Below are positions 8,794 through 27,598 of a DNA stretch of 32,000 nt, one piece after another. Below the pieces are notes generated by a model. The model saw only the letters and a program-made list of their open reading frames with translations, was not told the origin of the DNA and ran no database searches. Origin of the DNA: Demequinaceae bacterium (lineage in GTDB: Bacteria; Actinomycetota; Actinomycetes; Actinomycetales; Demequinaceae); assembly GCA_965250005.1 (NCBI GenBank), contig OZ252279.1, forward strand, positions 840,001 to 872,000. The letters are read 5' to 3'. How positions within the stretch are numbered: the stretch's first letter is position 1; each line of letters opens with the position of its first letter. A program made the translations under genes and the position numbers.

Positions 8794-9630
8794 CTACGCG
8801 GATACCGCCGGGCTAGGCGACGCAGTGTCCGTCGGCTTGCCGCCCGGAGTGCCCTCCGGCTTGCCGCCGCCAACGCCATCAGGTTTGCCTCCCTGAGCGT
8901 CCTCCGGCTCGTCATCGCCATCAGGCTTACCGCCCGGAGTGCCCTCCGGCTTGCCGCCGATGGCTTTGGCGCGCTCGCTCACGGCTGCGCCAAAATCTGC
9001 CCCGCGAGTCTCGCCGCTCGCCATGAATTGAAGGAGAGCCGAGACGCTCGCACGCGTGTCCGATGACTCGCCCGGGTTGTCATTTGAGACCGCCTCGGCC
9101 GCTACCAGCAGCGCGTCGGCCGCGCCGATCTCGCCGCTCTCGCGGAGAGCCTTGGCTGCATGTTCGATGGCCTCCTCAGCGTCACCTTGGTCATCCAGTT
9201 CGACTGCTTCGTCTAGGCGCTCGTCAATCCCTCCGTCGCCAAGGCCGAAGGCCTCGAACGCACGGTCAACGCCATAGAGGGCATCGCCGGGGATCGCGTT
9301 GTCAGCCGCCGCCGCGGTACCTGCCACACCAATCGATGCCGCCAGGGCGACGAGTCCCGCCACTCCTGCTCGGCGTCTCCAGGTCACAGTTTCGTTCTTG
9401 CTGGTGCCGAGCAGCCTCGATCGTGCGGGAGGCATGGATTCCGCCGAGTTTCGTGCGACTCGCGCCAGAGTAGAAGCGAAGTCCTGGGCGGCTGCCGCGG
9501 ATCCGTCGACCTCCGCCAGCGATCGAATTTTGTCGGTCATTGGCTTCAGGCGGGCAAGGTCTCGGCCCTCAGGGGACTGCCCTGAGAACAACGTGTCAAT
9601 ATCTCGGTCGGACCACTCGCGTTTTGTCAT
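8794..9630 (-). CDS. Putative anti-sigma factor, single-pass membrane protein with DUF5667-like ectodomain (module A partner)
   Basis: ORF trimmed to MTKREWSDRDIDTLFSG (ATG 9628-9630). One TM segment (AGVAGLVALAASIGVAGTAAAA) followed by PGDALYGVDRAFEAF, which resembles the DUF5667 start. Lies directly downstream of an ECF sigma. The C-terminus has a GGKPEGTPGGKP duplication. Confidence 0.65.
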   Translation of the reverse strand: MTKREWSDRDIDTLFSGQSPEGRDLARLKPMTDKIRSLAEVDGSAAAAQDFASTLARVARNSAESMPPARSRLLGTSKNETVTWRRRAGVAGLVALAASIGVAGTAAAADNAIPGDALYGVDRAFEAFGLGDGGIDERLDEAVELDDQGDAEEAIEHAAKALRESGEIGAADALLVAAEAVSNDNPGESSDTRASVSALLQFMASGETRGADFGAAVSERAKAIGGKPEGTPGGKPDGDDEPEDAQGGKPDGVGGGKPEGTPGGKPTDTASPSPAVSA

Positions 9631-9664
9631 GTCACTGCTGTTATCGCCGCCGGGCGCCGAAAGG

Positions 9665-10240
9665 TTACAGATCTGGCGGAATGCGTGCACGCAATGCCGC
9701 GAGCGCCCGATGCTGAAGGGTCTTTACCGCCCCGCTACGCTTGCCCGTGATCGCTGCCGTCTCAGCGACCGAGAACCCGCCGACGATCCTGAGCAGCAGC
9801 ACATTTCGCTGATCATCCGAGAGATCTTCGAGCAACGCTTGTGCGTCGCCGGATGCAATGTTCGCGAGCGCCTCGCCCTCTGCGTTTCCGCCCGCGAGTT
9901 CGAGCGTGGCGGGATCTACATCGGCTGATCGTGGCCGACGGCCAACCGCGCGTCGGTCGTCGAGCATGCGCCGATGCGCGATGACGAACACCCATGATCT
10001 AAACGCGGCCTCGTCGCCCTCGAAGCTTCCGATGCCGTTGGCGACCTGCAGGAACGTCTCGGAAGCGACGTCTTCGGGTTCGCGCGCTCCTCGGCCAGCG
10101 AGGTAGCCCGTCACGGGGCCGGCAAATTCTCGATGAATCTGAGTCCACGCCCACTCAGACCCCTCACGGGCGCCAGCGAGAACCGTCGGGAACGCCTTGC
10201 CTAGGCTCACGGCCCGCCACGCTCCCCATTCATTGACCAA
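9665..10240 (-). CDS. ECF (sigma-70 family) RNA polymerase sigma factor, module A
   Basis: Region 2 (EDVASETFLQVANGIGSF, FRSWVFVIAHRRMLDDRR) and region 4 HTH (LLLRIVGGFSVAETAAITGKRSGAVKTLQHRALAALR). The track start is a TTG. An internal GTG at 10210 is an alternative start. Confidence 0.85.
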   Translation of the reverse strand: MVNEWGAWRAVSLGKAFPTVLAGAREGSEWAWTQIHREFAGPVTGYLAGRGAREPEDVASETFLQVANGIGSFEGDEAAFRSWVFVIAHRRMLDDRRAVGRRPRSADVDPATLELAGGNAEGEALANIASGDAQALLEDLSDDQRNVLLLRIVGGFSVAETAAITGKRSGAVKTLQHRALAALRARIPPDL

Positions 10241-10340: not shown

Positions 10341-10416
10341 TGGTAGCCCCGACGGGATTCGAACCCGCGCTACCGCCTTGAGAGGGCGGCGTGCTAGGCC
10401 GCTACACAACGGGGCC
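10341..10416 (-). tRNA. tRNA-Glu (anticodon CTC), CCA encoded
   Basis: The minus strand reads GGCCCCGTTGTGTAGCGGCCTAGCACGCCGCCCTCTCAAGGCGGTAGCGCGGGTTCGAATCCCGTCGGGGCTACCA. It has a 7-bp acceptor stem, an anticodon stem CCGCC/GGCGG with loop CT-CTC-AA, and a T-arm GCGGG-TTCGAAT-CCCGT. Confidence 0.9.
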
Positions 10417-10565: not shown

Positions 10566-10611
10566 GTACCGCGCACGGCCACCGATGCGGATTCGCGGCC
10601 GTGCGCGGTAC
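10566..10611 (-). terminator. Perfect 15-bp inverted repeat hairpin downstream of the module B partner
   Basis: GTACCGCGCACGGCC (10566-10580) and GGCCGTGCGCGGTAC (10597-10611) with a 16-nt loop, 17 nt after the stop at 10628. No U-tract, so it is either an intrinsic terminator without a tail or an RNA-stability/boundary element. Confidence 0.45.
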
Positions 10612-10627
10612 TAGCTCTTGCGCGTTC

Positions 10628-11470
10628 CTACTGTTCGGCCAACCACTCCGCGTAGCCGGTCGCGTGGCCGGCGTCATACCCGGCAACCCAGCCCGCGTTG
10701 TAGCCGTTTACGAAGGCCACCGAGCCGCTATTGGTCGGCGGTGCATTGTCAGGCGCCTCGCCCGCTCGGCCATCCGCGTAGCCTTGCCAGTCACCTTCAT
10801 GTACGCCCTCGCCGTGTCCCAGGTTGTAGTCCCAGTCTGCGAGCGCGGCTTGGCCAGCGGCGTAGCCGTCATCGTACTTACTCCGCCAACCTGCCTGCCA
10901 ACCTGCAATGTAATCTGCCGAAGACGAGCAATCGTCAGGGGTGTCGTCGAATCCATTGTTGTCGTGGCCGTCCTGGTAGCCGGCCGCGTGCCCGTAGGAT
11001 TCGCCGTCGGCGAATCCGCTCGCGTATTCCTCAGACGGGTCCTGCGTGGGGACGGGGTCCGGGTGCGGGTCGGGGTCCGGGTGCGGGTCGGGATCGCTCG
11101 CGGTTTCACCCTCTGGAGCGGGCTCGTGCGTCTCCGTTTCCGGTTCTTCCGCGACGTGAGTGGGCGCTGGGCTGGGTGTGTGCTCAGCAACCTGATGCGG
11201 GTCGGGATCGGGGCTGTGTGTTGCACTCGGCGCGGGCGTCACGGATCCGGCAGCTATGTCGCCGCTTGCCTGGACGATGTTGGCCACCGCCATGCCGCCA
11301 AGCAACAATCCAGCGCCCACCGCGAGCGCCCCACCGCCGAGTTCCGCATGCTTGACCAAGCGGCCGCGGCGTGCCGCGCCCATCAGTTTCGCATCGGACG
11401 TATGCGCGCCCGGCTTCTGGTGCGCCGCGTCGCTCGCCATTTCTTCCATCATGTCGTGGATATTCTTCAT
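10628..11470 (-). CDS. Sigma-coupled single-pass membrane protein with acidic Pro/Asp linker and Gly-aromatic tetrad-repeat ectodomain (module B partner)
   Basis: ORF 10628-11662 trimmed to MKNIHDMMEEM. Its ATG (11468-11470) overlaps the sigma B stop (TGATG). One TM (GGGALAVGAGLLLGGMAVANIV), then a PDPDPH linker, then repeats such as FADGESYGHAAGYQDGH, IAGWQAGW, YDDGYAAG, NGYNAGWVAGYDAGHATGYAEW. Confidence 0.75.
   Translation of the reverse strand: MKNIHDMMEEMASDAAHQKPGAHTSDAKLMGAARRGRLVKHAELGGGALAVGAGLLLGGMAVANIVQASGDIAAGSVTPAPSATHSPDPDPHQVAEHTPSPAPTHVAEEPETETHEPAPEGETASDPDPHPDPDPHPDPVPTQDPSEEYASGFADGESYGHAAGYQDGHDNNGFDDTPDDCSSSADYIAGWQAGWRSKYDDGYAAGQAALADWDYNLGHGEGVHEGDWQGYADGRAGEAPDNAPPTNSGSVAFVNGYNAGWVAGYDAGHATGYAEWLAEQ
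11054..11095. repeat. 18-bp tandem repeat, about 2.3 copies, encoding (DPDPHP)n
   Basis: ggggtccgggtgcgggtc occurs at 11054-11071 and 11072-11089, plus a partial third copy. In frame within the module B partner. Confidence 0.85.
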
Positions 11471-12015
11471 CACTTGCCTCCATTTCCTAGGGCCACGCGC
11501 GCGGTTTCCCGCGGCGCAGCGTCGACCGCATCGCTTCCCAGCCGGACCCTGAGCTTGCCCGAAGCGTTGAAGACATATCGCTTCACCGTGCCTTCGGCGA
11601 GCTTCAGCGCGACTGAAATCTGTGGGGTTGTCATGTCCTCGAAGTACTTGAGCACGATGCACGCGCGTTCCTGGGGGCTGAGCCCCGCGAGCGCGCTGTG
11701 CAGATCCGCATGAGCGCCTACCCAGCCGTCATGACTTTCCGAAGCCTCGGGCAAGGCAATCGTCGCTTTCTTGGCGTTCGCGACGTTCGCCCGCCGAGCC
11801 CGACTGATTACTTCATTGGCGATTGCCCGCTTCACGTAGGACTCGGCTGAATCCACGGTGGTTTTCGACCGCCCGCGCACGAATGCCTTGACGATCGCTT
11901 CTTGAGCAACTTCCTCGGCGTCGGCCATCGAACCGGTCAAGAGATAGGCGTAGCCCACAAGCGCGCGACGCCGGTCGCGCACGACGCGCTCCATCACACT
12001 GTGCCAACTCTCCAT
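11470..12015 (-). CDS. ECF sigma factor, module B (paralogue of modules C, D, E)
   Basis: ORF 11470-12114 trimmed to MESWHSVMERVV (ATG 12013-12015, GGAGG 5 nt upstream). Region 2: RRALVGYAYLLTGSMADAEEVAQEAIVKAF. Region 4: LSPQERACIVLKYFEDMTTPQISVALKLAEGTVKRYVFNASGKLR. Confidence 0.85.
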   Translation of the reverse strand: MESWHSVMERVVRDRRRALVGYAYLLTGSMADAEEVAQEAIVKAFVRGRSKTTVDSAESYVKRAIANEVISRARRANVANAKKATIALPEASESHDGWVGAHADLHSALAGLSPQERACIVLKYFEDMTTPQISVALKLAEGTVKRYVFNASGKLRVRLGSDAVDAAPRETARVALGNGGK

Positions 12016-12330
12016 CGTGACCTCCGCTAGTGGTGCTCTCGTGTACTTAGACGCCACAGGTACACGATTGGTTGTATTGGCCCTCAAGTTTGCCGTGCGC
12101 GGCTTGGCCATCAAATTTCTTTGAGAAATGGTGAATCAAGGCCGGAGCACAGCAACCTAGCCGACGAACGTTCAGAAGTCGCATCCGGCTGCGACGCCCG
12201 CGGCATTGCGTTTCCTGGCGTTGACGGAAGCAAGGTTGGCGCGGTTCGAAGCCATAATCACCCGCGATAAGAACTGGGAGGCGCACCACATCCCACAAAC
12301 TGCCATGTCCCGGCCGGCCACCCATAGATA

Positions 12331-12356
12331 AAGAAAAAGGCCCGCCGAAGCGGGCC
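12331..12356 (-). terminator. Rho-independent terminator after tRNA-Gln
   Basis: The minus strand reads GGCCCGC-TTCG-GCGGGCC followed by TTTTTCTTTAT, 10 nt downstream of the tRNA-Gln 3' end. Confidence 0.7.
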
Positions 12357-12366
12357 TGAAACAAAG

Positions 12367-12438
12367 CTGGGGTACCAGGACTCGAACCTAGACTAAGAGA
12401 ATCAGAATCTCTCGTGCTGCCAATTACACCATACCCCA
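12367..12438 (-). tRNA. tRNA-Gln (anticodon CTG), CCA not encoded
   Basis: The minus strand reads TGGGGTATGGTGTAATTGGCAGCACGAGAGATTCTGATTCTCTTAGTCTAGGTTCGAGTCCTGGTACCCCAG. Anticodon stem AGAGA/TCTCT with loop TT-CTG-AT, T-loop GGTTCGAGTCC, and a U1-A72 pair typical of tRNA-Gln. Confidence 0.9.
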
Positions 12439-12577
12439 ATGGCCCCAACCGGAGTCCGGGCCGAGGCACCACTTTAGCGCCTCCGCGGTTGGCGCCCAAC
12501 CACAGCAGGTGCCTCCGGCCTCGGCGGTGACCGGCGCGCGCAGGGAAAAGGCCGCCGAGCGCGCCGCTCGCGGAACC

Positions 12578-13771
12578 CTAGAAGGTCTCGGCGTAGGCCG
12601 CCACACCCGCTGCGTACCCCGGGCCGTAGCTCGAGAGATAGCCGTCGGAGTAGCCATTCTGGAACGGGTACCAACTACCCCACTCGCTCTCTGGGTAGAA
12701 TTCGTTGCGTCCGTCCGGGGCATCGTCGCGGCTTCCGAAACCGTCGTCGTACCCGTCGGCGTAGCCATCGGCGGCGCCCGCGACCCAGCCATCATCGTAG
12801 GCCTTGTCGATCAGTGCCGCGAGGTGAGCCACTCCCTCCGCGTAGCCATCGGCGTACCCGATTCCGTAAGAAGCCTGGAAGCCAAGGCGCAGCCACTCTC
12901 GTTCGATCTCCGGTACCGATGCGTTGTAGTCACGGTCATTTGCGCCGTCATCGTAACCCTCCTCGTAGCCCCACTCCAGGCCCAATGCGTAGCCAGCTAC
13001 GTAGTCGTCTTCAGCCTCTTGCTCGCCGTGGGCGTACGCGTCCGCGTACGTCGCGGCGTACCCGGCTGCGTAGCCATCGCGGTAGGCCTCAGAACCATCG
13101 CCAACCTCAAATGACGCGTCGAACTCGTTGCCGTGGTATCCGTCTTGCACGCCTTGCTCTGACGCGGCGCCACTACCCGCTTCGTAGCCGTCGGCGTAGC
13201 CGCCGTCACCCTCTGGCGCGGGCTCGTCGTTCGGCTCGTCGTTCGGCTCGTCGTTCGGCTCGTCGTTCGGCTCGTCGTTCGGCTCGTCGTTCGGCTCGTC
13301 GTTCGGCTCGTCGTTCGGCTCGTCGTTCGGCTCGTCGTTCGGCTCGTCGTTCGGCTCGTCGTTCGGCTCGTCGTTCGGCTCGTCGTTCGATTCCGTCTGA
13401 CCGTCGCCTTCGTGTTCGTCTGCGTCAGTTTCTGTCGGGTGGTCAGGCTCGGGTTCATCATGCTCGGTTGCTTCGTTCTCTTCCTTCTCAACTTCTCGGT
13501 TCTCAAGTTCGTCGAGCCAGTCCTCGAATACATGGCCAGGGTCGTCGACACTGTTTGCGTCGGCGGCGTCTACGATGTTCGCAACGGCGACGCCGCCAAA
13601 GATGAGGCCGACAGACGCGACGAATGCCATCCCCGCGAGCCCCGTGGCCCACCTGGCGCGACTGCGGCGCGCTTGATCGATCAGTTCGACCCCGTCCGTG
13701 GCCGCCTTGGCCTTGTGCTCGGCGCCCGCTGCCGTAGCTAGGTCGCTCAGCGCACTGTTCATGTCGTTCAT
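12578..13771 (-). CDS. Sigma-coupled single-pass membrane protein with (NDEP)14 stalk and large Gly-aromatic tetrad-repeat ectodomain (module C partner)
   Basis: 397 aa. Its ATG overlaps the sigma C stop (ATGA at 13768-13771). One TM (WATGLAGMAFVASVGLIFGGVAVANIV), an acidic linker, (NDEP)14, then repeats such as YADGYEAG, YRDGYAAGYAATYADAYAHG, WGYEEGYDDG, IGYADGYAEG, DGYADGYDDGF, NGYSDGYLSSYGPGYAAG. Confidence 0.8.
   Translation of the reverse strand: MNDMNSALSDLATAAGAEHKAKAATDGVELIDQARRSRARWATGLAGMAFVASVGLIFGGVAVANIVDAADANSVDDPGHVFEDWLDELENREVEKEENEATEHDEPEPDHPTETDADEHEGDGQTESNDEPNDEPNDEPNDEPNDEPNDEPNDEPNDEPNDEPNDEPNDEPNDEPNDEPNDEPAPEGDGGYADGYEAGSGAASEQGVQDGYHGNEFDASFEVGDGSEAYRDGYAAGYAATYADAYAHGEQEAEDDYVAGYALGLEWGYEEGYDDGANDRDYNASVPEIEREWLRLGFQASYGIGYADGYAEGVAHLAALIDKAYDDGWVAGAADGYADGYDDGFGSRDDAPDGRNEFYPESEWGSWYPFQNGYSDGYLSSYGPGYAAGVAAYAETF
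13220..13387. repeat. Perfect 12-bp tandem array, 14 copies, encoding (NDEP)14
   Basis: The plus-strand unit cggctcgtcgtt (minus AAC GAC GAG CCG) occurs 14 times with one substitution in the terminal unit (ggg for cgg). The copy number agrees with the ORF length (128 + 56 + 213 = 397 aa). Confidence 0.97.
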
Positions 13772-14316
13772 CGCGTTCCTCCATCTTTGACTGCCACGCG
13801 GATAAGTTCCCGTGGTTCCGGATCAGCCATCGTGCTTCCCAGGGTGTCGCGGAGTTTCTCGGCCGCGTTGTGCAGGTAGCGCTTGACCGTGCCCGCCGAG
13901 AGCCTGAGCTCATCTGCGATTTGCGCCACTGTCATATCCTCGAAGTACCGCATAACTACGCACGCTCGTTCTTGCGCGCTCAATCCGGCAAGGGCCTTGT
14001 GAATGTCTGCGTGGACTCCTACCCACGTCTCGTGACCGGGCTCCGACTCCGCTGCAGCGAGGGCGGCGCTTCTTGCGGCAGCGACCTTTCGGTGCCGGGC
14101 ACGGTTGATCGTTTCGTTGACGATTGCCCTCTTGATATACGCTTCCGCGGTCTCGACTTCCCTCTTGGCCCGCCCACGAGCGAAAGTCTTGACGATCGCG
14201 TCCTGCGCAATCTCCTCGGCTTCGGACATTGACCCCGATACCAAGAACGCGTAACCCACAAGCGCATGGCGACGCTCGCGAACGATCCGCTCCATCACCT
14301 CGGCCCAACTAGTCAT
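13768..14316 (-). CDS. ECF sigma factor, module C
   Basis: ORF 13768-14355 trimmed to MTSWAEVMERIV (ATG 14314-14316, GGAGG upstream). RHALVGYAFLVSGSMSEAEEIAQDAIVKTF and LSAQERACVVMRYFEDMTVAQIADELRLSAGTVKRYLHNAAEKLR. It is the closest paralogue of sigma B. Confidence 0.85.
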   Translation of the reverse strand: MTSWAEVMERIVRERRHALVGYAFLVSGSMSEAEEIAQDAIVKTFARGRAKREVETAEAYIKRAIVNETINRARHRKVAAARSAALAAAESEPGHETWVGVHADIHKALAGLSAQERACVVMRYFEDMTVAQIADELRLSAGTVKRYLHNAAEKLRDTLGSTMADPEPRELIRVAVKDGGTR

Positions 14317-14340
14317 GCGCGCCTCCGTCGACTGTCCCTT

Positions 14341-14402
14341 CACTAAGACAGACACCGTAACGCCGCTTTTCGTTGTAGCCCAAGTCTGTGAGGTTTCTCA
14401 CA
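14341..14402 (-). promoter_or_regulatory. Upstream region of sigma C: CRP/GlxR-type box plus a block shared with the sigma B upstream region
   Basis: TGTGA-GGTTTC-TCACA at 14387-14402. The adjacent minus-strand sequence is ACTTGGGCTACAACG-N17-GTCTGTCTTAGTG. The sigma B upstream region (12045-12091) has ACTTGAGGGCCAATACAACC-N17-GTCTAAGTA. Confidence 0.4.
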
Positions 14403-14496
14403 CGCGCTCCGCCAGCCGCGCACAACCCTTAGATCGGCGTGCCGCGTGGGACGCGCCAGCGGCCCGCCTGCGCCGGGTCTCTCGCCAGGTCTCGTT

Positions 14497-15273
14497 CTAA
14501 TCGTCTTCGTCGTCTTGAGGGCCCCGGGAATCCTTCTTCGACTTGTCCTCGCTCTTGCCGTTCCCCTGGTTTTCGGGTCCTTGCGCATTCCCTTGCGCAT
14601 TCCCTTGCGCATTCCCTTGCGCATTCCCTTGCGCATTCCCTTGCGCATTCCGGCCGCTAGAGGAATTTGCGTCACCGGCATTCGCTGAAGAGCCCTCCGC
14701 TCGACCCGGGTTTTGCGCCCCGTGGGTCTTCGATTCATCGACGAACCCATCCACGTACCCATCGGCGAAGCCCCGCTGGTATCCCTCCTCATACGTAACG
14801 CCATCCTGGGCCGCGACGCGAGAAACCATGTCCGAGTCGATTCGCTCCGTCAGGCTCGCGCCGTAGATCAATCCCTCGGCATAGCCGTCTAGGTATCCCG
14901 CTGCAAGGCCTGCCTCAAACTCGTCAATCCCGTCGGAGTGCTCCGCGTTGCGGAGCGCCTGAAGCGCGGGGCCGACGCTACTCGGGTTGACCGTAGGAGG
15001 CGCGCTAGGGCCAAGGGAGGCTGCGTGCTCTGGGAGTTCAATGCTCGTCGCAGCTTGCGCACCCTCCGTCGAGGTCACCGCCGCAATCGCGGCGGAGCCG
15101 ATAGCCACCCCCACAACGCTGGCCAGAGCGGCGCTCGCGACTGCCGTGAGTCGCATGGCCTTGCCGCGCCTCACTGCCCGCACAACTTCCGTACCATCGT
15201 CCTCGGTCATGATCCGCGTACGGGTAGCGGCCGCGCGCGACAAACCCGAGAGCCTCTCACCCAAGATTCTCAT
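14497..15273 (-). CDS. Sigma-coupled single-pass membrane protein with Gly-aromatic tetrad repeats and C-terminal (GNAQ)6 array (module D partner)
   Basis: 258 aa. Its ATG overlaps the sigma D stop (ATGA at 15270-15273). One TM (LTAVASAALASVVGVAIGSAAIAAV), then EAGLAAGYLDGYAEGLIYG and EEGYQRGFADGYVDGFVDE, then (G/R)NAQ x6 and a Lys/Asp-rich tail. Confidence 0.75.
   Translation of the reverse strand: MRILGERLSGLSRAAATRTRIMTEDDGTEVVRAVRRGKAMRLTAVASAALASVVGVAIGSAAIAAVTSTEGAQAATSIELPEHAASLGPSAPPTVNPSSVGPALQALRNAEHSDGIDEFEAGLAAGYLDGYAEGLIYGASLTERIDSDMVSRVAAQDGVTYEEGYQRGFADGYVDGFVDESKTHGAQNPGRAEGSSANAGDANSSSGRNAQGNAQGNAQGNAQGNAQGNAQGPENQGNGKSEDKSKKDSRGPQDDEDD
14581..14652. repeat. 12-bp tandem array, 6 copies, encoding (GNAQ)6
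   Basis: ttgcgcattccc x5 (14581-14640) plus ttgcgcattccg (14641-14652). In frame in the module D partner. Confidence 0.97.
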
Positions 15274-15818
15274 TGCCCAACCCCGGTTCGTAGCGCTGCG
15301 CGGATCATCGCATGCTGGTCGCGCGGCTGACTGGACGCTTCTAGAGAGGTCTCAATTTTCGATATGGCGTTCTCCATGTAGCGGTCCACGGTCGTGACGG
15401 ACAGCCGCGTAAGAGCGACGATTTGAGCAGTCGATCGCTGGTCCACGTATCGAAGCACCACGCACGCTCTCTCCGCGACAGTCAATTCCTCGATCGCGTC
15501 GTGAACATCGGAGTGTATTCCCATCCACGGTTCACTTCTTCGCGTTGGAATCCGCCCCGTCAAGGATGCTCCGCGAGACTTTTGCGCGGGGTCGCGGCGC
15601 GCACGGTCAACAAGGCTCTTAACGATTCGGGCCTCAATACGGTCCTCGGCATCGCGGACGGTGAGACCGCTCTTGGCGCGGGAAAGAATTCCGACGATCG
15701 CGTCTTGCGCTGCCTGTTCCGCGTGGGGCATGGACCCGCAGATGAGAAAGGCGTAGCCCACGAGGGAGGGCCGACGCTCGCGCGCGATGGCCTCGATGAC
15801 TCCTGGCAACTCTGCCAT
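15270..15818 (-). CDS. ECF sigma factor, module D (more divergent paralogue)
   Basis: ORF 15270-15848 trimmed to MAELPGVIEAIARERRPSLVGYAFLICGSMPHAEQAAQDAIV (ATG 15816-15818, GAGGAG 8 nt upstream). Region 4: LTVAERACVVLRYVDQRSTAQIVALTRLSVTTVDRYMENAISKI. Confidence 0.8.
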   Translation of the reverse strand: MAELPGVIEAIARERRPSLVGYAFLICGSMPHAEQAAQDAIVGILSRAKSGLTVRDAEDRIEARIVKSLVDRARRDPAQKSRGASLTGRIPTRRSEPWMGIHSDVHDAIEELTVAERACVVLRYVDQRSTAQIVALTRLSVTTVDRYMENAISKIETSLEASSQPRDQHAMIRAALRTGVGQ

Positions 15819-15915
15819 GAGGTGCTCCTCAGGGAACGCAACCCCCACCGGGTCGCTAGTTTAGGCTAGCGCGCACCACAGACAAGTGCAGGGTGAGGCG
15901 CCCCGATCATACCGT

Positions 15916-16182
15916 TTACAACAATATATCCACGACAGATGTGAGAGATTTCACACGGTCCACGCGGGCGTCCGTGACCTCTTGTTCAGGGACCGACGGC
16001 CAGTTTCCGACGCGTTCACACCAGACGCCGCGTAGCCCGGGAGCCTTGGACGCCACCGCGTCGATGTCGAACTCGTCGCCGACGTACATGGTTCGCGCCG
16101 GGTCAGTATTGAGCCAGCGGCACGCCTCGAGGTAGACGCGCGAGTCTGGCTTGCCGAATCCTCTTCCAACACAGCCGAATGA
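15916..16182 (-). pseudogene. HAD-superfamily hydrolase remnant (C-terminal ~88 codons only)
   Basis: FGCVGRGFGKPDSRVYLEACRWLNTDPARTMYVGDEFDIDAVASKAPGLRGVWCER aligns with the C-terminal half of the intact HAD at 18050-18856 (VGKPDPRVFLLACEKLGTEPGQTLYVGDEFDIDGLGALNAGLQSAWLDR). No DxDxT motif-I region is found upstream in any frame. Confidence 0.55.
15940..15955. promoter_or_regulatory. CRP/GlxR-type box upstream of sigma D
   Basis: TGTGA-GAGATT-TCACA, both half-sites perfect, 122-137 nt upstream of the sigma D ATG. Followed on the minus strand by an AT-rich stretch (GGATATATTGTTGTAAACGGTATGAT). Overlaps the last codons of the HAD remnant. Confidence 0.4.
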
Positions 16183-16395
16183 ACGGGTTTGCCGGACTCC
16201 GGGCACAGCCCTACCGACACTTCCCAAGGCCAGGCAATCCGCCCGAAACTTCCCTGGCAAAGGGCGTCTCTTACTGCGCAGGAGGCAGTTCGAAGTTGTC
16301 CCACCAGTGGTCCATATAGATTTCGACGGCTCGGGCGTAGGTTCTCGACCACGATGACCAATGCGCCCCCCAGCCGCAGGAACAACGCGGCCGCA

Positions 16396-16429
16396 CTGTG
16401 GGTCGCGCACGTCTGCGCACGACCCACAG
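16396..16429 (-). terminator. 10-bp perfect stem hairpin just downstream of the ParB/AIPR-like gene
   Basis: CTGTGGGTCG (16396-16405) and CGACCCACAG (16420-16429) with a 14-nt loop, 8 nt after the stop at 16438. No clear U-tract. Confidence 0.4.
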
Positions 16430-16437
16430 CAAGATCC

Positions 16438-17820
16438 CTAGTGGTTCGCGCGCCGCAGGACCGACTCAAAAACATTCTGTGCGAGCCGGTAAACCTCGAT
16501 CGACTTGCCGAACTTCTGCGGGTCATAGTCGAGCGGAGCCATGAAGAGCGAGATCTGCGGCACGATCTCGGCAAGGTGCTTCTTCAGGAAGTCGGCAGGG
16601 TCTACCTTCCAACGCACCGTCTCCCCATCGACTTCAAGGAGCGCACGAAGACCGTATACGTACGGCCAGATGAAGCCCTCGGGCACCCGCCACTCAACAT
16701 TCGTACCCGTGAATGGCGTGACGTGCTGGATCTTGGAGTTCTGATTCATCTTCTTGTTGGCGGTGATCCGGCCCCACTTGCCACTCGCCTCGCTGTTGTA
16801 GAGACCGGGCACATTCGCGTAGATGTAGTCAAACAACTGCGGCATCTTGACCGCGACATCCAACGCGGACTTCACCGAGATGCTCGCAGGCACCTTGGCT
16901 GTCTGGCCAGGAGGAAAGACCTCCTGAGAAGACATGAGGCGCTCGAAACGGGAGACGCAGTCCCCCTTGCTCCGATAGAGGTTCTGAGGAACGGGAGCAG
17001 AGACTTCGCGCTCCTCGGAGTCCTTCGGCAGTTCCTCAACCACACCGAGCGGAACCCACGCGAGCGCGACGATATCGCCAACCTTGATCTTCCCACCCTC
17101 GTTGGTCTTCCACTCCACGTTCTGTGAGACGTCCTTCTGAAGGACTTCCTTGAGGTAGTCGAAGTAGCCCGCCTGGTTCGCCTTGGCCTCAATGCGCAAC
17201 TGCACGTTGTTGTTGCGCGCCGAGCAAATGGCGATGAGGGAGTCGTTGAAGGCGTCGACGGCGATCGGATCCTCAGGCTCCGACGGCACAATAAGTTCGA
17301 CGGGGACGAGAACATCCAGTTCAGGCGCAACGTCCTGTTGCGCCTTCACGCGGGTCTTGAGCGCACGCAGGGCTTCCGATTGCGCGTTCCAGAGGTCTCG
17401 GAACGCGAGCCAGTTCTTCGCCCCGCGAATATCCTTCTCGTTCACACCGGCAACCCGAAGCAGAAGGCGGCCGATCTCAAGCGAGTTGTGCCCGCCGTCA
17501 AGGATGCCCTCAAGCCGCGGCTCAACCACGCTGATCTCGTAACGGCCACGATCCCGCCGCGTGTACTTCGCGGATGCGAGGAGGATGCCCTTCGTCTTCA
17601 GGGGGAAGATGTCTGGAGTTTTCTCGATCGACTCTGCAATTGCGTCCGTCACGGACCCAACGCGCGCCGACCGGGGATTCGCATCGAGATCCACAACTTC
17701 GAGGATGTCAATGAAATTCTTGATCCGTACCATCCCCATGACTCGGACGATGTGATCAATTTCCTGTTCGAAGCTGTGCTCGAACTTGATGGTTACTGCG
17801 GTTTCAATAGAAGGCTTCAT
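16438..17820 (-). CDS. ParB/sulfiredoxin-like N-terminal domain protein, AIPR/DndB-like abortive-infection candidate
   Basis: ORF 16438-17877 trimmed to MKPSIETAVTIKF (ATG 17818-17820, GAAGGGGG upstream), 460 aa. VVDLDANPRSARVGSVTDAIAESI and EGILDGGHNSLEIG resemble ParB-fold NPR and DGxH(R/N) motifs. ICSARNNNVQLRIEAKANQ recalls AIPR-type blocks. GC looks lower than the flanks by eye. The function is inference. Confidence 0.7.
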   Translation of the reverse strand: MKPSIETAVTIKFEHSFEQEIDHIVRVMGMVRIKNFIDILEVVDLDANPRSARVGSVTDAIAESIEKTPDIFPLKTKGILLASAKYTRRDRGRYEISVVEPRLEGILDGGHNSLEIGRLLLRVAGVNEKDIRGAKNWLAFRDLWNAQSEALRALKTRVKAQQDVAPELDVLVPVELIVPSEPEDPIAVDAFNDSLIAICSARNNNVQLRIEAKANQAGYFDYLKEVLQKDVSQNVEWKTNEGGKIKVGDIVALAWVPLGVVEELPKDSEEREVSAPVPQNLYRSKGDCVSRFERLMSSQEVFPPGQTAKVPASISVKSALDVAVKMPQLFDYIYANVPGLYNSEASGKWGRITANKKMNQNSKIQHVTPFTGTNVEWRVPEGFIWPYVYGLRALLEVDGETVRWKVDPADFLKKHLAEIVPQISLFMAPLDYDPQKFGKSIEVYRLAQNVFESVLRRANH

Positions 17821-17878
17821 CAGATGAGCCCCCTTCCCCTGCTGTTGCAGGCGTAGGGGTGCACAGAAAACGGGCATG

Positions 17879-17908
17879 AAAAAACCGCCTCGTCATAGAC
17901 GAAGGCGG
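17879..17908 (-). terminator. Rho-independent terminator after the gltX-HAD unit
   Basis: The minus strand reads CCGCCTTCGTC-TAT-GACGAGGCGG (one bulge) followed by TTTTTT. It lies about 140 nt downstream of the HAD stop and immediately upstream of the ParB/AIPR-like gene. Confidence 0.65.
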
Positions 17909-18049
17909 CGCTCACGTATCCGTGGTCGCCGTGCACCTGTCCAGGCGTACATTCCGGCCACCCATCCGGGTGACCTCCGTCCAGCATACCGCATCGGCAA
18001 GGAATTGTGAGGCCCTACCGTGTGTCGTCTCGTGAAGCGTCTACCCGCG

Positions 18050-18856
18050 CTAGGTTTGCTCGACCGCGATACGAGCCACGTCGGCAAGCGACGTGGCTCG
18101 TATGAGCCCGCTCTCCTCGGCTGCTTCCATCTCATACGCTGGGATCTCGCGCGTCCGCACCCCCGGACGGTCGAGCCACGCTGATTGGAGCCCGGCATTG
18201 AGAGCGCCCAATCCGTCAATGTCGAATTCGTCGCCCACATAGAGCGTCTGACCTGGTTCCGTGCCGAGTTTCTCGCAGGCCAACAGGAAGACTCGGGGAT
18301 CCGGTTTGCCGACGAATCGCGGCGCTTGAGCGCCTGCGCCGGGAACATTTATAGGATTGGCGTTTCCGAATCCCAGCGTGTCCACGCCGACGAGCATGGG
18401 GACTCGCTCCAGACCAACGGCCGCGAGCTTGCCCGCTTGGTATCCGAATCGCGCATTACTTAGCGCGCCGTACGGGATCGCCTCAGCGTCAAGAAAATCG
18501 AGCAGCGGCGCGGCGTCGGGGTGCGCCACCCAGCCGTTCTGGAACGCCTGCTCGAACACGTCCACCCACTCGACGTACTCGTCGTCGCGGAGATCGGGTC
18601 CCTCGTACACCTGGTGCATGTCAACCACGCGCAGCTTGCGCTGCTCGAAGGCCGACGTCTCGCCGCGAGCGTGTGCGCGGTAGTGGCTGTAACGATCTGC
18701 GCGCCAGAACTCGGTGACCTCGAGCGCAGCTGCACCCGCCCGCAAGTGAGGGACGGCAACTACGGCGATCGCGTGCGCGAACGCCGCCTTGGTATCCACA
18801 AGTGTGTCGTCGATGTCGAGCAGCACTCCGTCAATGTCCCGCCCTCGCGCAGTCAC
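18050..18856 (-). CDS. HAD-superfamily hydrolase
   Basis: ORF 18050-19114 trimmed to an in-frame GTG at 18856 (VTARGRDIDGVLLDIDDTLVDT), 7 nt after the gltX stop. Motif I DIDDT, GKPDPRVF, and motif IV YVGDEFDID. The upstream part of the ORF overlaps gltX and is Arg/Ser-rich. Confidence 0.85.
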   Translation of the reverse strand: MTARGRDIDGVLLDIDDTLVDTKAAFAHAIAVVAVPHLRAGAAALEVTEFWRADRYSHYRAHARGETSAFEQRKLRVVDMHQVYEGPDLRDDEYVEWVDVFEQAFQNGWVAHPDAAPLLDFLDAEAIPYGALSNARFGYQAGKLAAVGLERVPMLVGVDTLGFGNANPINVPGAGAQAPRFVGKPDPRVFLLACEKLGTEPGQTLYVGDEFDIDGLGALNAGLQSAWLDRPGVRTREIPAYEMEAAEESGLIRATSLADVARIAVEQT

Positions 18857-18863
18857 GCCGGCA

Positions 18864-20345
18864 CTAGAGAGTGGCCCGGAGGCGGCGCAAGCGAGCGAGC
18901 GTAGACCCCTGTCCGAGTATCTCCATTGACTCGAATAGCGGCGGCGATACCAGCCGGCCGGTGACCGCGACCCGCAGCGGCCCGAAGGCGAACCGCGGCT
19001 TGATCTCCATCTTCTCCACGAGGACGACCTTGAGCGCGTCCTGCTGTGACTGAGCCGAGAAGTCCTCGAGCACATCAAGGACCGCGATCGACGCGTCAAG
19101 GATCTCGGCGGCATTGCCCGGTAGCTTGGCGATCGCCGCTACCTCGTACTCGATCCCGACGTCGGCGGTGAAGAAGAAACCGAGCATTCCCGGCGCCTCG
19201 CTGAGCATCTGAATGCGTTCTTGGACGAGCGGCGCAGCCGCAGCCAGAATGGCTTCTTCGTTCGGGAGCAAGTCGCGCACGGCTGACGCACTCACCACGC
19301 CCGCGGCGTGCAAGTACGGCACGAGCCTCACGACGAAATCCCCCATGGGCAAGAGCCGCATGTGTTCGGCGTTGATCGCCTCGGCCTTCTTCATGTCGAA
19401 CCGCGCGGGGTTGGAATTGACGTCGACAACGTCGAACGCGGTGATCATCTCGTTAAGAGTGAAGACGTCGCGGTCGGCCGAGATGCTCCAGCCGAGCAGC
19501 GCCAAGTAGTTCAGCAGGCCCTCGGGCAGGAAGCCGCGGTCACGGTGGTGGAGCAAGTTGGATTCAGGTTGGCGCTTGCTGAGCTTCTTGTTGCCCTCGC
19601 CGGTGACCATCGGCAGGTGCGCGAACGTAGGCACGGCATCGCCAATGCCCAATTCCACGAGCGCCCTGTGAAGAGTGATCTGGCGGGGAGTAGAACTCAA
19701 CAGGTCCTCGCCCCGAAGCACGTGCGTGATTTTCATCAGTGCATCGTCCACGGGGTTAACGAGCGTGTAGAGCGGGTCCCCATTGCCACGCACGATCACG
19801 AAGTCCGGGATGGAGCCCGCGGGAAATGTGACCTCGCCGCGCACCAAGTCAGTGAAGGTGATGTCCTCATCCGGCATGCGCACGCGTATGACGGGCTTGC
19901 GCCCCTCGGCAAGGTACGCAGCCTTCTGCTCGTTCGTCAGGTCGCGGTCAAAGCCGTCGTAACCGAGCTTGGGATCACGCCCGGCTGCCGAATGGCGCGC
20001 CTCGGTTTCATCGGGGGTGGAGAAGGACTCGTACGCATACCCGCCTTCGATCAGGCGACGAGCAACGTCGTCGTGCAGGTCTCGGCGTTGGCTCTGCCGG
20101 TACGGACCGTAGTCGCCGCCAACCTCGGGACCCTCGTCCCAGTCGAGACCGAGCCAGCGCAGCGACTCGAGCAGCTGCGTGTAAGACTCGTCCGAGTCGC
20201 GCGCGGCGTCCGTGTCCTCAATGCGGAAGACGAAATCCCCGCCCGTGTGCCGCGCGTACGCCCAGTTAAACAGCGCGGTGCGGATGAGTCCGACGTGAGG
20301 CGTGCCGGTAGGGGATGGACAGAAACGGACGCGAACCTTTGTCAA
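18864..20345 (-). CDS. gltX: Glutamate--tRNA ligase
   Basis: 493 aa. [16 protein letters not shown] (HIGH-type motif region) and KLSKR (KMSKS motif). TTG start with GAGGAG 5 nt upstream. Confidence 0.95.
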
Positions 20346-27035: not shown

Positions 27036-27598
27036 TTGGCGCTACCATGGCCGGAAATCATGGGCGAGCTCGCGAACGAGCGAGGGCGGCAATTGTTTGG
27101 CTACGCCTACTTGCTCACGGGTTCGGCCGCGGACGCCGACGACCTGGTCCAGGCCGCATTCGTAAGGGAATTCTCCGCTCGTCGCTCCTGGCCCCACGGG
27201 GCGACACCCGAAGCCAACGTGCTGCGCGCCATCCGTACCCTCTGTATCGACCTCAAGCACCTCGCCCGCAGAAGCCACGGAGATCGCGACACCAAAGCGG
27301 ATCAACCCCTGCCCCCTCCCACACCGGGTGTGCACAAGCGGCCCGCGCTCGAGAATGCCCTCGCGTTGCTCAGCCCCCCGAGCGCACATGCGTAGTGATG
27401 CGATTCCTCGACGACATGACCTCGCAAGCGATCTCTACCGAGCTTGGCCTTACACCCGCAGCTGTCCGCGAGCACGTGAGCGACGGCGTGAAGCGCCTGG
27501 AGCAGGCGCTTGGAGATCTGGGGCTAACCGTGGATGACGTCTTCCATGGCGGCACCGAAACCGTGCTGGTAGTCACTCGAAAGGTGGCGACCTCATGA
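27036..27598 (+). pseudogene. ECF sigma factor, module E, interrupted by a frameshift in a C6 run
   Basis: Region 2 is in the frame of 27036 (TTG, GGGAGG 5 nt upstream): RQLFGYAYLLTGSAADADDLVQAAFVREF ...ALALLSPP, then a stop at 27393. Region 4 is in the -1 frame: PPERTCVVMRFLDDMTSQAISTELGLTPAAVREHVSDGVKRLEQAL. The junction is at CCCCCC 27374-27379. Confidence 0.8.

What the first reader, a model, noticed from the sequence alone, without database searches (positions are those of the whole stretch)
10628..15273. Partner proteins share an unrecognised, hyper-acidic Gly-aromatic tetrad-repeat ectodomain and lack any known anti-sigma motif
Seen: partners B, C and D each have a 45-60 aa cytoplasmic N-terminus with no Cys/His zinc motif (no H-x3-C-x2-C), followed by one TM helix. 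The extracytoplasmic region is dominated by a 4-residue period, G-[YFW]-x-[DEAG]. Examples are YADGYEAG, YRDGYAAGYAATYADAYAHG, IGYADGYAEG, DGYADGYDDGF, AGYLDGYAEGLIYG, EEGYQRGFADGYVDGFVDE and NGYNAGWVAGYDAGHATGYAEW. The regions are almost devoid of Lys/Arg. Established: long GxxxG-periodic helices are known from the FliH/YscL N-termini and the Yae1/Lto1 deca-GX3 motif. Inference: this is a glycine-zipper-like helical repeat with a parallel aromatic stripe. It may bind cell wall, cations or other ligands and act as the sensor of a new anti-sigma class. I do not recognise it as a named domain.
Basis: partly seen in the sequence, partly recalled or inferred. Interest (0 to 1): 0.75.

Follow-up and report, generated by a model that had tools for sequence, protein, structure and literature searches.

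The report
Anti-sigma-like proteins with glycine-tyrosine zipper ectodomains
Three neighbouring stress-regulator (ECF sigma factor) genes are each followed by a membrane protein whose outer part is built from one, two or three copies of a 60-residue acidic glycine-tyrosine repeat unit; the repeat is real and conserved, but it is a version of a known motif type and is not a constant feature of this regulator family.

Summary
Partners B (10628-11470), C (12578-13771) and D (14497-15273), all on the minus strand, are translationally coupled to ECF sigma genes. Each has a Cys-free N-terminus of about 40 aa, one TM helix and an acidic ectodomain with a strong G-[YFW]-x-x period.

The tetrads are not loose low complexity. 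They form a 62-residue unit: a five-Gly run, a loop of about 18 aa, then a second Gly run. This unit occurs once in D, twice in B and three times in C. The glycine register is 100% conserved in orthologues from two other genomes, while the x positions vary freely.

The motif is the known GX3/YG type seen in FliH/YscL repeats, the Yae1/Lto1 deca-GX3 motif (Pfam PF09811) and the SMN YG zipper. The window proteins score below Pfam's threshold.

The same unit occurs in over 100 unrelated clusters of phage proteins and lipoproteins. In the two foreign contexts inspected there was no sigma gene nearby.

Five syntenic Demequina-like loci and about 13 representative clusters keep the N-terminus and TM helix but carry tetrad-free hyper-acidic tails. 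The conserved anti-sigma-like part is therefore the N-terminal module, and the ectodomain is a fast-evolving swappable tail.

Verdict: a real feature, and a new variant of known kinds. Function is inferred only.

The parts
15270..15848 (-). ECF sigma factor D (ORF; the likely start is nearer 15818)
   Evidence: Pfam Sigma70_r4_2 scores 37.8 bits against a 25.7 cutoff. TIGR02983 scores 55.3 bits, below its cutoff. It is 40% identical to sigma C over its full length.
14497..15273 (-). Partner D (258 aa): N-terminal module, TM helix (residues 39-69 = 15067-15159), one GY-tetrad unit, a GNAQ x6 array and a Lys/Asp tail
   Evidence: 4-nt ATGA overlap with sigma D; hydropathy; one match to the unit HMM.
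14734..14922 (-). Partner D GY-tetrad unit (residues 118-180)
   Evidence: The unit HMM scores 58.3 bits over model positions 1-59 of 62.
14579..14651 (-). Perfect 12-bp tandem array (6.1 copies) encoding GNAQ x6
   Evidence: TRF reports 100% matches and score 146.
14350..14376 (-). ECF-type promoter-like motif ACAAC-N18-GTCT upstream of sigma C
   Evidence: This is one of only 2 matches in the 32-kb window, both upstream of sigma genes. The core TACAAC(C)...(G/C)GTCT is shared by six orthologous loci.
13768..14316 (-). ECF sigma factor C (182 aa from the ATG at 14316)
   Evidence: Pfam Sigma70_r2, r4 and r4_2 all score above their cutoffs, and TIGR02937 scores 62.6 bits against a 42.9 cutoff. 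It is 100% identical to database protein P0001 (182 aa). The nearest solved relative is M. tuberculosis SigL at E = 1e-10.
12578..13771 (-). Partner C (397 aa): N-terminal module, TM helix (residues 41-70 = 13562-13651), acidic linker with NDEP x14, and three GY-tetrad units
   Evidence: 4-nt ATGA overlap with sigma C; hydropathy; three unit matches; orthologues in L014 and L023.
13221..13389 (-). Perfect 12-bp tandem array (14.1 copies) encoding NDEP x14
   Evidence: TRF reports 100% matches and score 338.
13019..13198 (-). Partner C unit 1 (residues 192-251)
   Evidence: Unit HMM score 56.7 bits.
12824..13006 (-). Partner C unit 2 (residues 256-316)
   Evidence: Unit HMM score 65.2 bits.
12599..12802 (-). 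Partner C unit 3 (residues 324-391)
   Evidence: Unit HMM score 57.6 bits. The segment WGSW..F..GYSDGY.SSYG.GYAAG is conserved in the L014 orthologue.
12366..12438 (-). tRNA-Gln(CTG) lying between pair C and pair B
   Evidence: ARAGORN and Rfam, 59.1 bits.
12049..12075 (-). ECF-type promoter-like motif ACAAC-N18-GTCT upstream of sigma B
11470..12015 (-). ECF sigma factor B (181 aa from the ATG at 12015; the ORF extends to 12114)
   Evidence: Pfam r2, r4 and r4_2 score above their cutoffs, and TIGR02937 scores 58.0 bits. It is 57% identical to sigma C.
10628..11470 (-). Partner B (280 aa): N-terminal module, TM helix (residues 44-68 = 11267-11341), Pro/Asp/His linker and two GY-tetrad units
   Evidence: 1-nt TGATG overlap with sigma B and a GGAGG ribosome-binding site; hydropathy; two unit matches.
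10847..11029 (-). Partner B unit 1 (residues 148-208)
   Evidence: Unit HMM score 71.3 bits.
10649..10831 (-). Partner B unit 2 (residues 214-274)
   Evidence: Unit HMM score 68.4 bits.

Best explanation
The region holds three tandem paralogous operons in a Demequina-like actinobacterium. Each encodes an ECF sigma factor related to the actinobacterial SigE family and a translationally coupled single-pass membrane partner.

The partner has two layers. The first is a conserved cytoplasmic segment of about 40 aa plus the TM helix. It consists of two short helix-like stretches, ending in A-R-R-G-R-x-x-W, then a TM helix ending in GG-x-A-V-A-N. I infer that this is the group-specific sigma-binding (anti-sigma) part.

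The second layer is a hyper-acidic, fast-evolving ectodomain that grows by 12-nt slippage. In this lineage it has been built into 1, 2 or 3 copies of a 62-residue GY-tetrad unit: a GX3 run, a loop containing [FY]-[DN]-D-(T/S)-P, then a second GX3 run.

I infer that each unit is a pair of helices packed by Gly-aromatic ('YG zipper', GASright-like) contacts. On this reading the units act as self- or hetero-association and stalk modules outside the membrane. Their folding or association state (possibly dependent on charge or cations) would set how accessible the anti-sigma factor is to proteolysis, and so control sigma release and autoinduction from the TACAAC-N17-CGTCT promoter.

Shown here: gene structure, coupling, topology signals, repeat architecture, register conservation and distribution. 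Inferred: sigma binding, helical hairpin packing, and any gating role.
For: - Sigma identity.
- Translational coupling and ribosome-binding sites.
- One TM helix and positive-inside charge bias.
- N-terminal module: it aligns across 12 partners from 8 loci. It is the only part retained in five syntenic loci whose ectodomains lack tetrads and in about 13 representative clusters.
- Promoter: the motif is present only upstream of sigma B and sigma C in the window (2 matches against 0.52 expected) and is conserved in six orthologous loci.
- Tetrad statistics.
- Register conservation: the tetrad Gly is conserved 18/18, 17/17 and 11/11 in L014_C, P0136 and wB relative to wC. Position x2 is conserved in only 4/18, 1/17 and 2/11.
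- Unit definition: the 62-position unit aligns across 13 partner units and 3 foreign lipoprotein units. An HMM built from the 13 partner units finds 1, 2 and 3 units in wD, wB and wC at 57-71 bits, and none in 120 sigma-factor controls.
- Higher-order repeat: BLAST aligns one wB region to two wC regions about 70 residues apart.
- Helical prediction: AF2 places helices over every tetrad run. Positions x2 and x3 are rich in Ala, Glu and Asp.
- Same composition as FliH repeats, where Tyr/Phe make up over 45% of x1 and Glu/Gln/Ala about two-thirds of x3, and which are predicted helical (PMC2674601).
- Solved precedent: interdigitated Y and G motifs form a helical YG-zipper dimer in SMN (PMC8287954).
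- GX3 motifs mediate Yae1-Lto1 complex formation (PMC4523923).
- Slippage: perfect 12-bp arrays encode NDEP x14 and GNAQ x6, and imperfect 12-bp periodicity lies inside the tetrad runs.
- Conserved acidity: the ectodomain net charge is -10 to -46 per 100 aa in all C-type partner orthologues, with or without tetrads.
Against: - There is no direct evidence that the partner binds sigma. The cytoplasmic segment is short and matches no known anti-sigma domain.
- AF2 confidence is low (mean pLDDT 37 and 43), so neither the hairpin packing nor even the helicity is established.
- Close sigma orthologues (about 60% identity) work with tetrad-free tails. The tetrad units therefore cannot be essential to the basic signalling mechanism.
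- The multiple alignments naturally favour aligning Gly with Gly, which inflates the register statistic somewhat.
- The unit HMM can also thread long continuous tetrad runs, so the count of 'full units' in foreign proteins is an upper bound.
Confidence: 0.5

Rival explanations
1. The ectodomain is a non-sensing, largely disordered polyanionic tail or spacer. The tetrads would be a by-product of 12-nt replication slippage on a GGC-TAC-GCC-GAC-type unit. All regulatory function would lie in the N-terminal module and TM helix.
For: - Perfect 12-bp arrays (NDEP x14, GNAQ x6) and imperfect 12-bp periodicity inside the tetrad runs.
- Orthologous partners in five syntenic loci have tetrad-free D/E/G/S tails.
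- AF2 pLDDT is mostly below 50.
- No hit above threshold to any curated family.
Against: - Gly positions are invariant (18/18, 17/17) while x2 and x3 have diverged almost completely between orthologues that are only about 40% identical.
- There is a defined 62-residue unit with a conserved loop and a conserved aromatic residue at the start of the second run.
- The same unit recurs in unrelated secreted and phage proteins.
- These patterns point to selection for a structure rather than recent slippage alone.
Confidence: 0.25
2. The GY-tetrad ectodomain would be a dedicated ligand sensor (cell wall, cations or another ligand) that defines a new class of anti-sigma factor tied to this sigma clade.
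For: - Extreme acidity together with exposed aromatic residues is compatible with cation or glycan binding.
- All six proteins that combine the partner N-terminal module with tetrads (window B, C and D; two in L014; P0136 in L023) lie directly downstream of a sigma gene of this clade.
Against: - The ectodomain is absent from most partners of the same sigma clade.
- It occurs in over 100 unrelated protein clusters. The two foreign contexts inspected (L018, L024) have no sigma gene.
- Acidity within the tetrads is not conserved, since the L014 orthologue has K/R-rich tetrads.
- Lack of a known anti-sigma domain is the rule for putative ECF anti-sigma factors, not a sign of a new class (PMC7826278).
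Confidence: 0.12
3. The partners are not anti-sigma factors. They would be sigma-dependent envelope or surface proteins that are simply co-transcribed with their sigma genes, for example surface-coating or adhesive acidic proteins.
For: - The cytoplasmic segment is only about 40 aa and matches no anti-sigma domain.
- The GY unit is found mainly in surface or structural proteins of phages and in lipoproteins.
Against: - The start and stop codons overlap in all three pairs.
- Strict +1 position with conservation of the N-terminal module rather than the ectodomain across 8 loci. This is the pattern expected of a sigma-binding regulator.
- It meets the operational criterion used to call putative anti-sigma factors (PMC7826278).
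Confidence: 0.1

Closest known systems
FliH/YscL AxxxG(xxxG)mxxxA glycine repeats (Trost and Moore 2009, PMC2674601)
   Same: The tetrad has the same make-up: Gly every fourth residue, Tyr/Phe dominant at x1, Glu/Gln/Ala at x3, and a predicted alpha-helix. NCBIfam FliH models are the best, though sub-threshold, hits to partners B, C and D.
   Different: FliH is a cytoplasmic regulator of the type III export ATPase, with one long run and a conserved C-terminal domain. Here the repeats lie outside the membrane, come as pairs of short runs (at most 5 Gly) joined by a conserved loop, carry Asp rather than Glu/Gln at x3, and have no FliH C-terminal domain.
Yae1/Lto1 deca-GX3 motif, Pfam PF09811 Yae1_N (PMC4523923)
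   Same: Both are GX3 periodic motifs with an aromatic x1. The motif mediates protein-protein complex formation. PF09811 is the only Pfam model that recognises these sequences: 12 bits for wD, 24.2 for the L014 orthologue and 45-62 for longer-run foreign relatives.
   Different: Yae1 and Lto1 are eukaryotic cytosolic adaptors with ten consecutive GX3 repeats. The window proteins score below the 27.5-bit gathering cutoff, have runs of at most 4 tetrads, and are bacterial and extracytoplasmic. The match is to a motif and does not show shared ancestry.
SMN YG box, the 'YG zipper' (Martin et al. 2012; PMC8287954)
   Same: Both have interdigitated GxxxGxxxG and YxxxYxxxY motifs in the G-Y-x-x register. 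The YG box is the only solved structure of such tetrads. It forms a soluble helical dimer in which Tyr packs on Gly of the partner helix.
   Different: The YG box is a single run of about 3 tetrads in a eukaryotic RNP assembly factor and is hydrophobic rather than acidic. Pfam SMN_YG-box does not hit the window proteins; there is only a weak hit (E = 0.048) in the foreign unit protein P0260.
Putative single-pass anti-sigma factors of actinobacterial ECF groups (SigE-like clade ECF222/51/38/39; Casas-Pastor et al. 2021, PMC7826278)
   Same: The partner is encoded at +1 of the ECF gene, has one TM helix and a short conserved cytoplasmic region, and matches no Pfam anti-sigma domain. The sigma factors hit TIGR02983 (SigE-fam_strep) best.
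   Different: Assignment to a specific ECF group was not possible with these tools, and the TIGR02983 scores (108, 108 and 55 bits) are below its 141.55 cutoff. I found no description of a GY-tetrad ectodomain for any such anti-sigma factor in the papers read.
Uncharacterised GY-tetrad lipoproteins and phage proteins (e.g. P0124, P0126, P0173; phrog_4785)
   Same: They share the two-run unit with a loop and a conserved aromatic restart. The unit HMM finds 82 foreign units scoring at least 25 bits in 62 proteins. They are secreted or surface-located and often very acidic.
   Different: They have signal peptides or lipoboxes, or phage N-terminal domains, in place of the sigma-partner module. No sigma gene was nearby in the two contexts inspected. 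Their functions are also unknown.

Membership tests
ECF (group IV) sigma-70 factors | Sigma-2 and sigma-4 domains only; score above the TIGR02937 / Pfam Sigma70_r2 and r4 cutoffs | tested here: met
   Sigma B: r2 34.6, r4_2 48.1, TIGR02937 58.0 (cutoff 42.9). Sigma C: r2 27.8, r4_2 57.3, TIGR02937 62.6. For sigma D only r4_2 (37.8) passes and TIGR02937 scores 33.6, below cutoff, but it aligns at 40% identity over the full length of sigma C.
SigE-family sigma factors (NCBIfam TIGR02983, SigE-fam_strep) | Score at or above the curated cutoff of 141.55 bits | tested here: not met
   It is the best-scoring model, but at 108.1, 108.1 and 55.3 bits. The sigmas are related to this subfamily but are not members by NCBI's criterion.
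Class I / zinc-binding anti-sigma domain (ZAS) | H-x3-C-x2-C motif and an N-terminal four-helix anti-sigma domain of about 80-90 aa (zf-HC2, RskA and similar) | tested here: not met
   There are no Cys residues in any N-terminus, and the cytoplasmic part is only about 38-47 aa. No anti-sigma Pfam or NCBIfam model hits at E <= 1. A PDB profile search finds nothing relevant.
Putative ECF anti-sigma factor (operational definition of Casas-Pastor et al. 2021) | Encoded next to the ECF gene (typically +1), with TM helices and a conserved cytoplasmic region | tested here: met
   The partner sits at +1 with overlapping stop and start codons, has one TM helix, and its N-terminal module is conserved in 12 partners. 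The criteria are quoted.
Anti-sigma factor (functional definition) | Binds its cognate sigma and inhibits it, releasing it on signal | not testable with these tools
   This needs an interaction assay or reporter experiment, or a confident complex model. A paired alignment for complex prediction could not be submitted.
Yae1_N / deca-GX3 (Pfam PF09811) | Score at or above the 27.5-bit gathering cutoff; ten consecutive GX3 repeats | tested here: not met
   wD scores 12.0 bits (E = 0.17); wB and wC give no hit at E <= 1. The longest Gly-xxx-Gly chain within the tetrad runs has 5 Gly. The L014 orthologue scores 24.2 bits, and foreign long-run proteins score 45-62 bits.
FliH/YscL | A conserved C-terminal FliH domain in addition to the N-terminal glycine repeats; score above the NCBIfam cutoffs (180-293 bits) | tested here: not met
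   Only the repeat segment matches. The best score is 26.6 bits against a 180-bit cutoff, and there is no Pfam FliH hit.
SMN YG box (Pfam PF20635) | Match to the YG-box model | tested here: not met
   No hit in wB, wC or wD at E <= 1. The G-Y-x-x-G-Y-x-x-G pattern is shared by inspection only.
Glycine-zipper / GxxxG helix-packing motif (pattern level) | (G,A,S)xxxGxxx(G,S,T) on one helix face; helical conformation; helix-helix packing | tested here: inconclusive
   The pattern is met: GxxxGxxxG occurs 9, 8 and 9 times in wB, wC and wD. Helices are predicted over all runs, but only at pLDDT 37-43. Packing was not assessable.

The most novel reading that the evidence does not exclude
The 62-residue two-run GY-tetrad unit may be an undescribed, widespread extracytoplasmic 'YG-zipper hairpin' domain. 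At present it is only partly caught, and misleadingly labelled, by Pfam Yae1_N. On this reading, phage surface proteins, lipoproteins and, in one Demequina-like lineage, anti-sigma factors all use it for homo- or hetero-association. The three paralogous partners, with 1, 2 and 3 units, would then zipper with one another outside the membrane and cross-couple the release of three ECF sigma factors.
Probability: 0.2. Interest if true: 0.6.

Novelty: new variant of a known kind. Interest (0 to 1): 0.4.

Why it matters
The work gives a concrete, testable example of how ECF anti-sigma-like proteins keep a small conserved cytoplasmic module while their extracytoplasmic parts are replaced and remodelled quickly by 12-nt slippage.

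It also shows that the GX3/YG tetrad is not confined to its three known cytoplasmic cases (FliH, Yae1-Lto1, SMN). It forms a defined unit of about 60 residues in many secreted, lipoprotein and phage proteins. If that unit is a soluble glycine-zipper association module, two things follow. It would be a new building block of bacterial and phage surfaces, and the automatic 'Yae1_N' labels on such proteins would need correcting.

For sigma-factor biology alone the finding is modest. The arrangement of genes and partners is the ordinary one.

Tried and rejected
- A homology search with the partner C ectodomain alone found nothing at E <= 1e-3.
- Exact-sequence look-ups of partner C, sigma C and P0001 were not on record. 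The window's partner proteins seem to be absent from the protein collections. They gave no self-hit, so family size is probably underestimated.
- The single genome-contig scan, run with a sigma alignment, returned only ECF sigmas about 23% identical from Cohnella and Paenibacillus. It was useless for context.
- The metagenome scan with the partner alignment returned only foreign lipoprotein loci.
- PDB sequence and profile searches with the ectodomain, the partner alignment and the N-terminal module gave no meaningful hits.
- Both AF2 models had mean pLDDT below 45. I therefore ran no fold search, because matches to such models are meaningless.
- Rejected: the ORFs are antisense artefacts of a high-GC genome. 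The partner frames show the coding GC1/GC2/GC3 pattern, and one antisense ORF (12814-13605, +) has GC3 of only 0.39, although another (10601-11713, +) does not differ. Orthologues are conserved in three genomes.
- Rejected: membership of a known cell-wall-binding repeat family (choline-binding, YG glucan-binding, LysM or SLH). No Pfam hit at E <= 1.
- A collagen-like, PPII or beta-solenoid conformation cannot be formally excluded. It is disfavoured by the Ala/Glu-rich x positions and the helical predictions.

Full report
**What is in the region.** The window is a housekeeping stretch of a high-GC actinobacterial chromosome. It carries ddl, gpsA, plsC, murA-like, leuC, an IclR regulator, gltX, a cimA/leuA-like gene and others. 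The closest sigma homologues with names come from Demequina, Cellulomonas, Actinotalea and Isoptericola, so a Demequina-like organism is likely. This is an inference.

Four sigma/partner pairs lie head-to-tail on the minus strand. Pair A (sigma 9665-10240, partner 8794-9630) is BldN/ShbA-like and is not part of the finding. Pairs B, C and D are the finding:
- sigma B 11470-12015 and partner B 10628-11470
- sigma C 13768-14316 and partner C 12578-13771
- sigma D 15270-15848 and partner D 14497-15273

The three sigmas are bona fide ECF sigma factors. Their best match, below cutoff, is NCBIfam TIGR02983 'SigE-fam_strep'. They are 57% and 40% identical to one another. The nearest solved relative is M. 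tuberculosis SigL.

Each partner start overlaps the sigma stop: TGATG for B and ATGA for C and D. Each has a GGAGG-type ribosome-binding site. The pairs are therefore translationally coupled.

**Checking the observation.** G[YFW]xxG occurs 8, 13 and 5 times in B, C and D, against 0.5, 1.1 and 0.2 expected from composition-preserving shuffles. No shuffle out of 5000 reached the observed values. Gly-Gly and aromatic-aromatic spacings are concentrated at 4 and 8 residues.

Each partner has one hydrophobic segment at about residues 39-70. It is preceded by 4 Lys/Arg in 15 residues and followed by none, and the N-termini contain no Cys. The ectodomains are strongly acidic, with net charge -38, -89 and -19.

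The N-terminus is about 38-47 aa. Partner B starts at 11470, not at the upstream GTG. Partner D has a Lys-rich tail.

**The tetrads form a defined unit.** BLAST aligns one region of partner B to two regions of partner C about 70 residues apart, which points to a higher-order repeat.

Aligning the segments gives a unit of about 62 residues. It has an aromatic-x-x-G run with five Gly, then a loop of about 18 residues often containing [FY]-[DN]-D-(T/S)-P-P and E-G/G-S, then a conserved aromatic residue that starts a second run of four to five Gly.

An HMM built from 13 such units finds exactly 1, 2 and 3 units in partners D, B and C (57-71 bits each). It finds three in each of two orthologues, and none in partners A or E or in 120 sigma-factor controls.

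**Relatives and register.** Sigma C homologues led to syntenic loci (gltX, HAD hydrolase, sigma, partner) in other genomes.

In L014 (sigma 70% identical) the partner C orthologue has 17 tetrads and the partner D orthologue has 6. A full HMMER scan of 1.84 billion representatives found one more such protein, P0136. It is encoded in the same synteny in L023.

Across these proteins, every tetrad glycine of partner C is conserved: 18/18, 17/17 and 11/11. The aromatic class is kept in 55-72% of cases. Position x2 is kept in only 6-22%.

The caveat is that aligners favour placing Gly on Gly.

The acidity of the tetrads is not conserved. The L014 orthologue has GYKAGYKAGYNR and GYERGYKAGK.

**The ectodomain is not tied to the sigma clade.** Five other syntenic loci (L015, L016, L020, L021, L022; sigma about 60% identical) encode partners with the same N-terminal module and TM helix. 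Their ectodomains consist of a Pro/Ser linker and a hyper-acidic D/E/G/S/H tail with no tetrads.

About 13 more representative clusters have the same build. Cellulomonas flavigena partners have non-repeat ectodomains.

The shared features are therefore two. One is the N-terminal module: M-x-x-[ILF]-x-x-x-L-x-x-L-A, a variable stretch, D-x-x-x-L-[IV]-x-x-A-R-R-G-R-x-x-W, then a TM helix ending GG-x-A-V-A-N. The other is a net charge of -10 to -46 per 100 residues outside the membrane.

**How the ectodomains evolve.** The ectodomains carry perfect 12-bp tandem arrays: 14.1 copies encoding NDEP in partner C and 6.1 copies encoding GNAQ in partner D. There is also imperfect 12-bp periodicity inside the tetrad runs. 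Twelve-nucleotide slippage is thus a visible source of four-residue periodicity and of rapid turnover.

**Comparison with known motifs.** The motif is a known type. In FliH/YscL glycine repeats, Tyr/Phe make up over 45% of x1 and Glu/Gln/Ala about two-thirds of x3, and the segments are predicted helical (PMC2674601). NCBIfam FliH models are the best, though far sub-threshold, hits to the partners.

Pfam Yae1_N (the deca-GX3 motif, which mediates Yae1-Lto1 complex formation; PMC4523923) gives 12 bits for partner D and 24.2 bits for the L014 orthologue. It gives 45-62 bits for foreign proteins with longer runs, against a cutoff of 27.5.

The one solved structure of G-Y-x-x tetrads is the SMN YG box. 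It is a soluble helical 'YG zipper' dimer in which Tyr packs on Gly of the other helix (PMC8287954).

None of these families includes the window proteins by its own criteria (see the membership table). The relation is one of motif and probable packing mode, not demonstrated ancestry.

**Distribution outside sigma partners.** The profile search found 230 representatives at E <= 1e-3. Apart from the partner orthologues, these are phage proteins (phrog_4785 and others) and lipoproteins or secreted proteins of other phyla.

The unit HMM recovers 82 units scoring at least 25 bits in 62 of them. They show the same two-run architecture and a 94% conserved aromatic residue at the restart. Two such contexts (L018, L024) have no sigma gene.

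**Structure.** AF2 on the partner C ectodomain, alone or with a four-row alignment, places helices over every tetrad run. Mean pLDDT is only 37 and 43, with a best stretch around 60-65. I therefore ran no fold search. Helicity is supported only indirectly, by the Ala/Glu/Asp-rich x positions and by the FliH and SMN precedents.

**Anti-sigma question.** No known anti-sigma domain is detectable in the N-terminal module by Pfam, NCBIfam or a PDB profile search. This is the usual state of putative ECF anti-sigma factors. Most match no Pfam anti-sigma domain, most are group-specific, and a single TM helix is the commonest architecture, seen in 82 groups (PMC7826278).

A motif ACAAC-N18-GTCT occurs only twice in the window, 34 nt upstream of the sigma B and sigma C start codons. 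Its core, TACAAC(C)...(G/C)GTCT, is shared by six orthologous loci. This fits the autoregulated promoters typical of ECF systems, a point that rests on established knowledge.

**Conclusion.** The finding is real. It is best read as ordinary ECF sigma/anti-sigma-like operons, triplicated in tandem. Their swappable, slippage-driven acidic ectodomains have, in one small lineage, been built from a conserved GX3/YG-zipper-type unit of about 60 residues. That unit is itself widespread but undescribed as a unit.

The proposed mechanism has two parts: sigma sequestration by the N-terminal module, and association or folding of the GY units modulating proteolytic release. Both parts are inferences. The new-sensor-class interpretation is not supported.

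Noticed in passing
window 27047-28560 (+): There is a fifth sigma/partner pair. The sigma ORF (27047-27598) shows only region 4, and its first ~100 codons read like out-of-frame Arg/Pro-rich sequence, which suggests a frameshift, a pseudogene or a wrong start. The overlapping partner (27595-28560, 321 aa) has the same RKGRRTR-plus-TM build but a non-repeat ectodomain with no Pfam hit.
   Followed up: partly
window 8794-10240 (-): Pair A consists of a BldN/ShbA-like ECF sigma (NF007230, 89.8 bits, below cutoff) and a partner with a weak DUF5667 hit. The partner's C-terminal GGKP(E/D)G(T/V)P repeat is encoded by 24/42-bp tandem arrays at 8833-8958. This is another slippage-built low-complexity ectodomain tail.
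   Followed up: partly
window 10341-10416 (-) and 12366-12438 (-): tRNA-Glu(CTC) and tRNA-Gln(CTG) genes sit between the sigma/partner pairs. Pair B therefore lies between two tRNA genes, a typical place for insertions or duplications.
   Followed up: no
window 15916-19114 (-): A 479-aa ORF (16438-17877) has no Pfam or PADLOC hit and lies in a lower-GC stretch (0.59-0.61). It is flanked by an intact HAD hydrolase gene (from 18050 to about 18840) and by a 3' fragment of a second HAD paralogue (from 15916 to about 16170; 42% identical to the C-terminus of the first). In related genomes a single HAD gene directly precedes the sigma gene, so an insertion seems to have truncated the ancestral copy.
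   Followed up: partly
window 13221-13389 and 14579-14651: Two perfect 12-bp tandem arrays (14.1 and 6.1 copies, 100% identity) lie inside coding sequence and encode NDEP x14 and GNAQ x6. Their perfection implies very recent expansion and possible copy-number variation between strains.
   Followed up: partly
L018 1661-4089 (+): A low-GC metagenomic contig carries two tandem paralogous lipoproteins (403 and 400 aa). Each has very long GY-tetrad regions followed by a conserved helical C-terminal domain of about 150 aa. They belong to the same family as P0124, P0126, P0129, P0132 and P0134. One cluster member is annotated by JGI as 'FliH', which is probably an annotation artefact caused by the repeat.
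   Followed up: no
L014 10192-13095 (+): In the closest related locus, a 967-aa GH9 cellulase (CelD_N + Glyco_hydro_9) and a flavodoxin-like gene lie between the sigma C pair and pair A, the interval where the window has pair B. This interval is evidently a hotspot of gene turnover.
   Followed up: no
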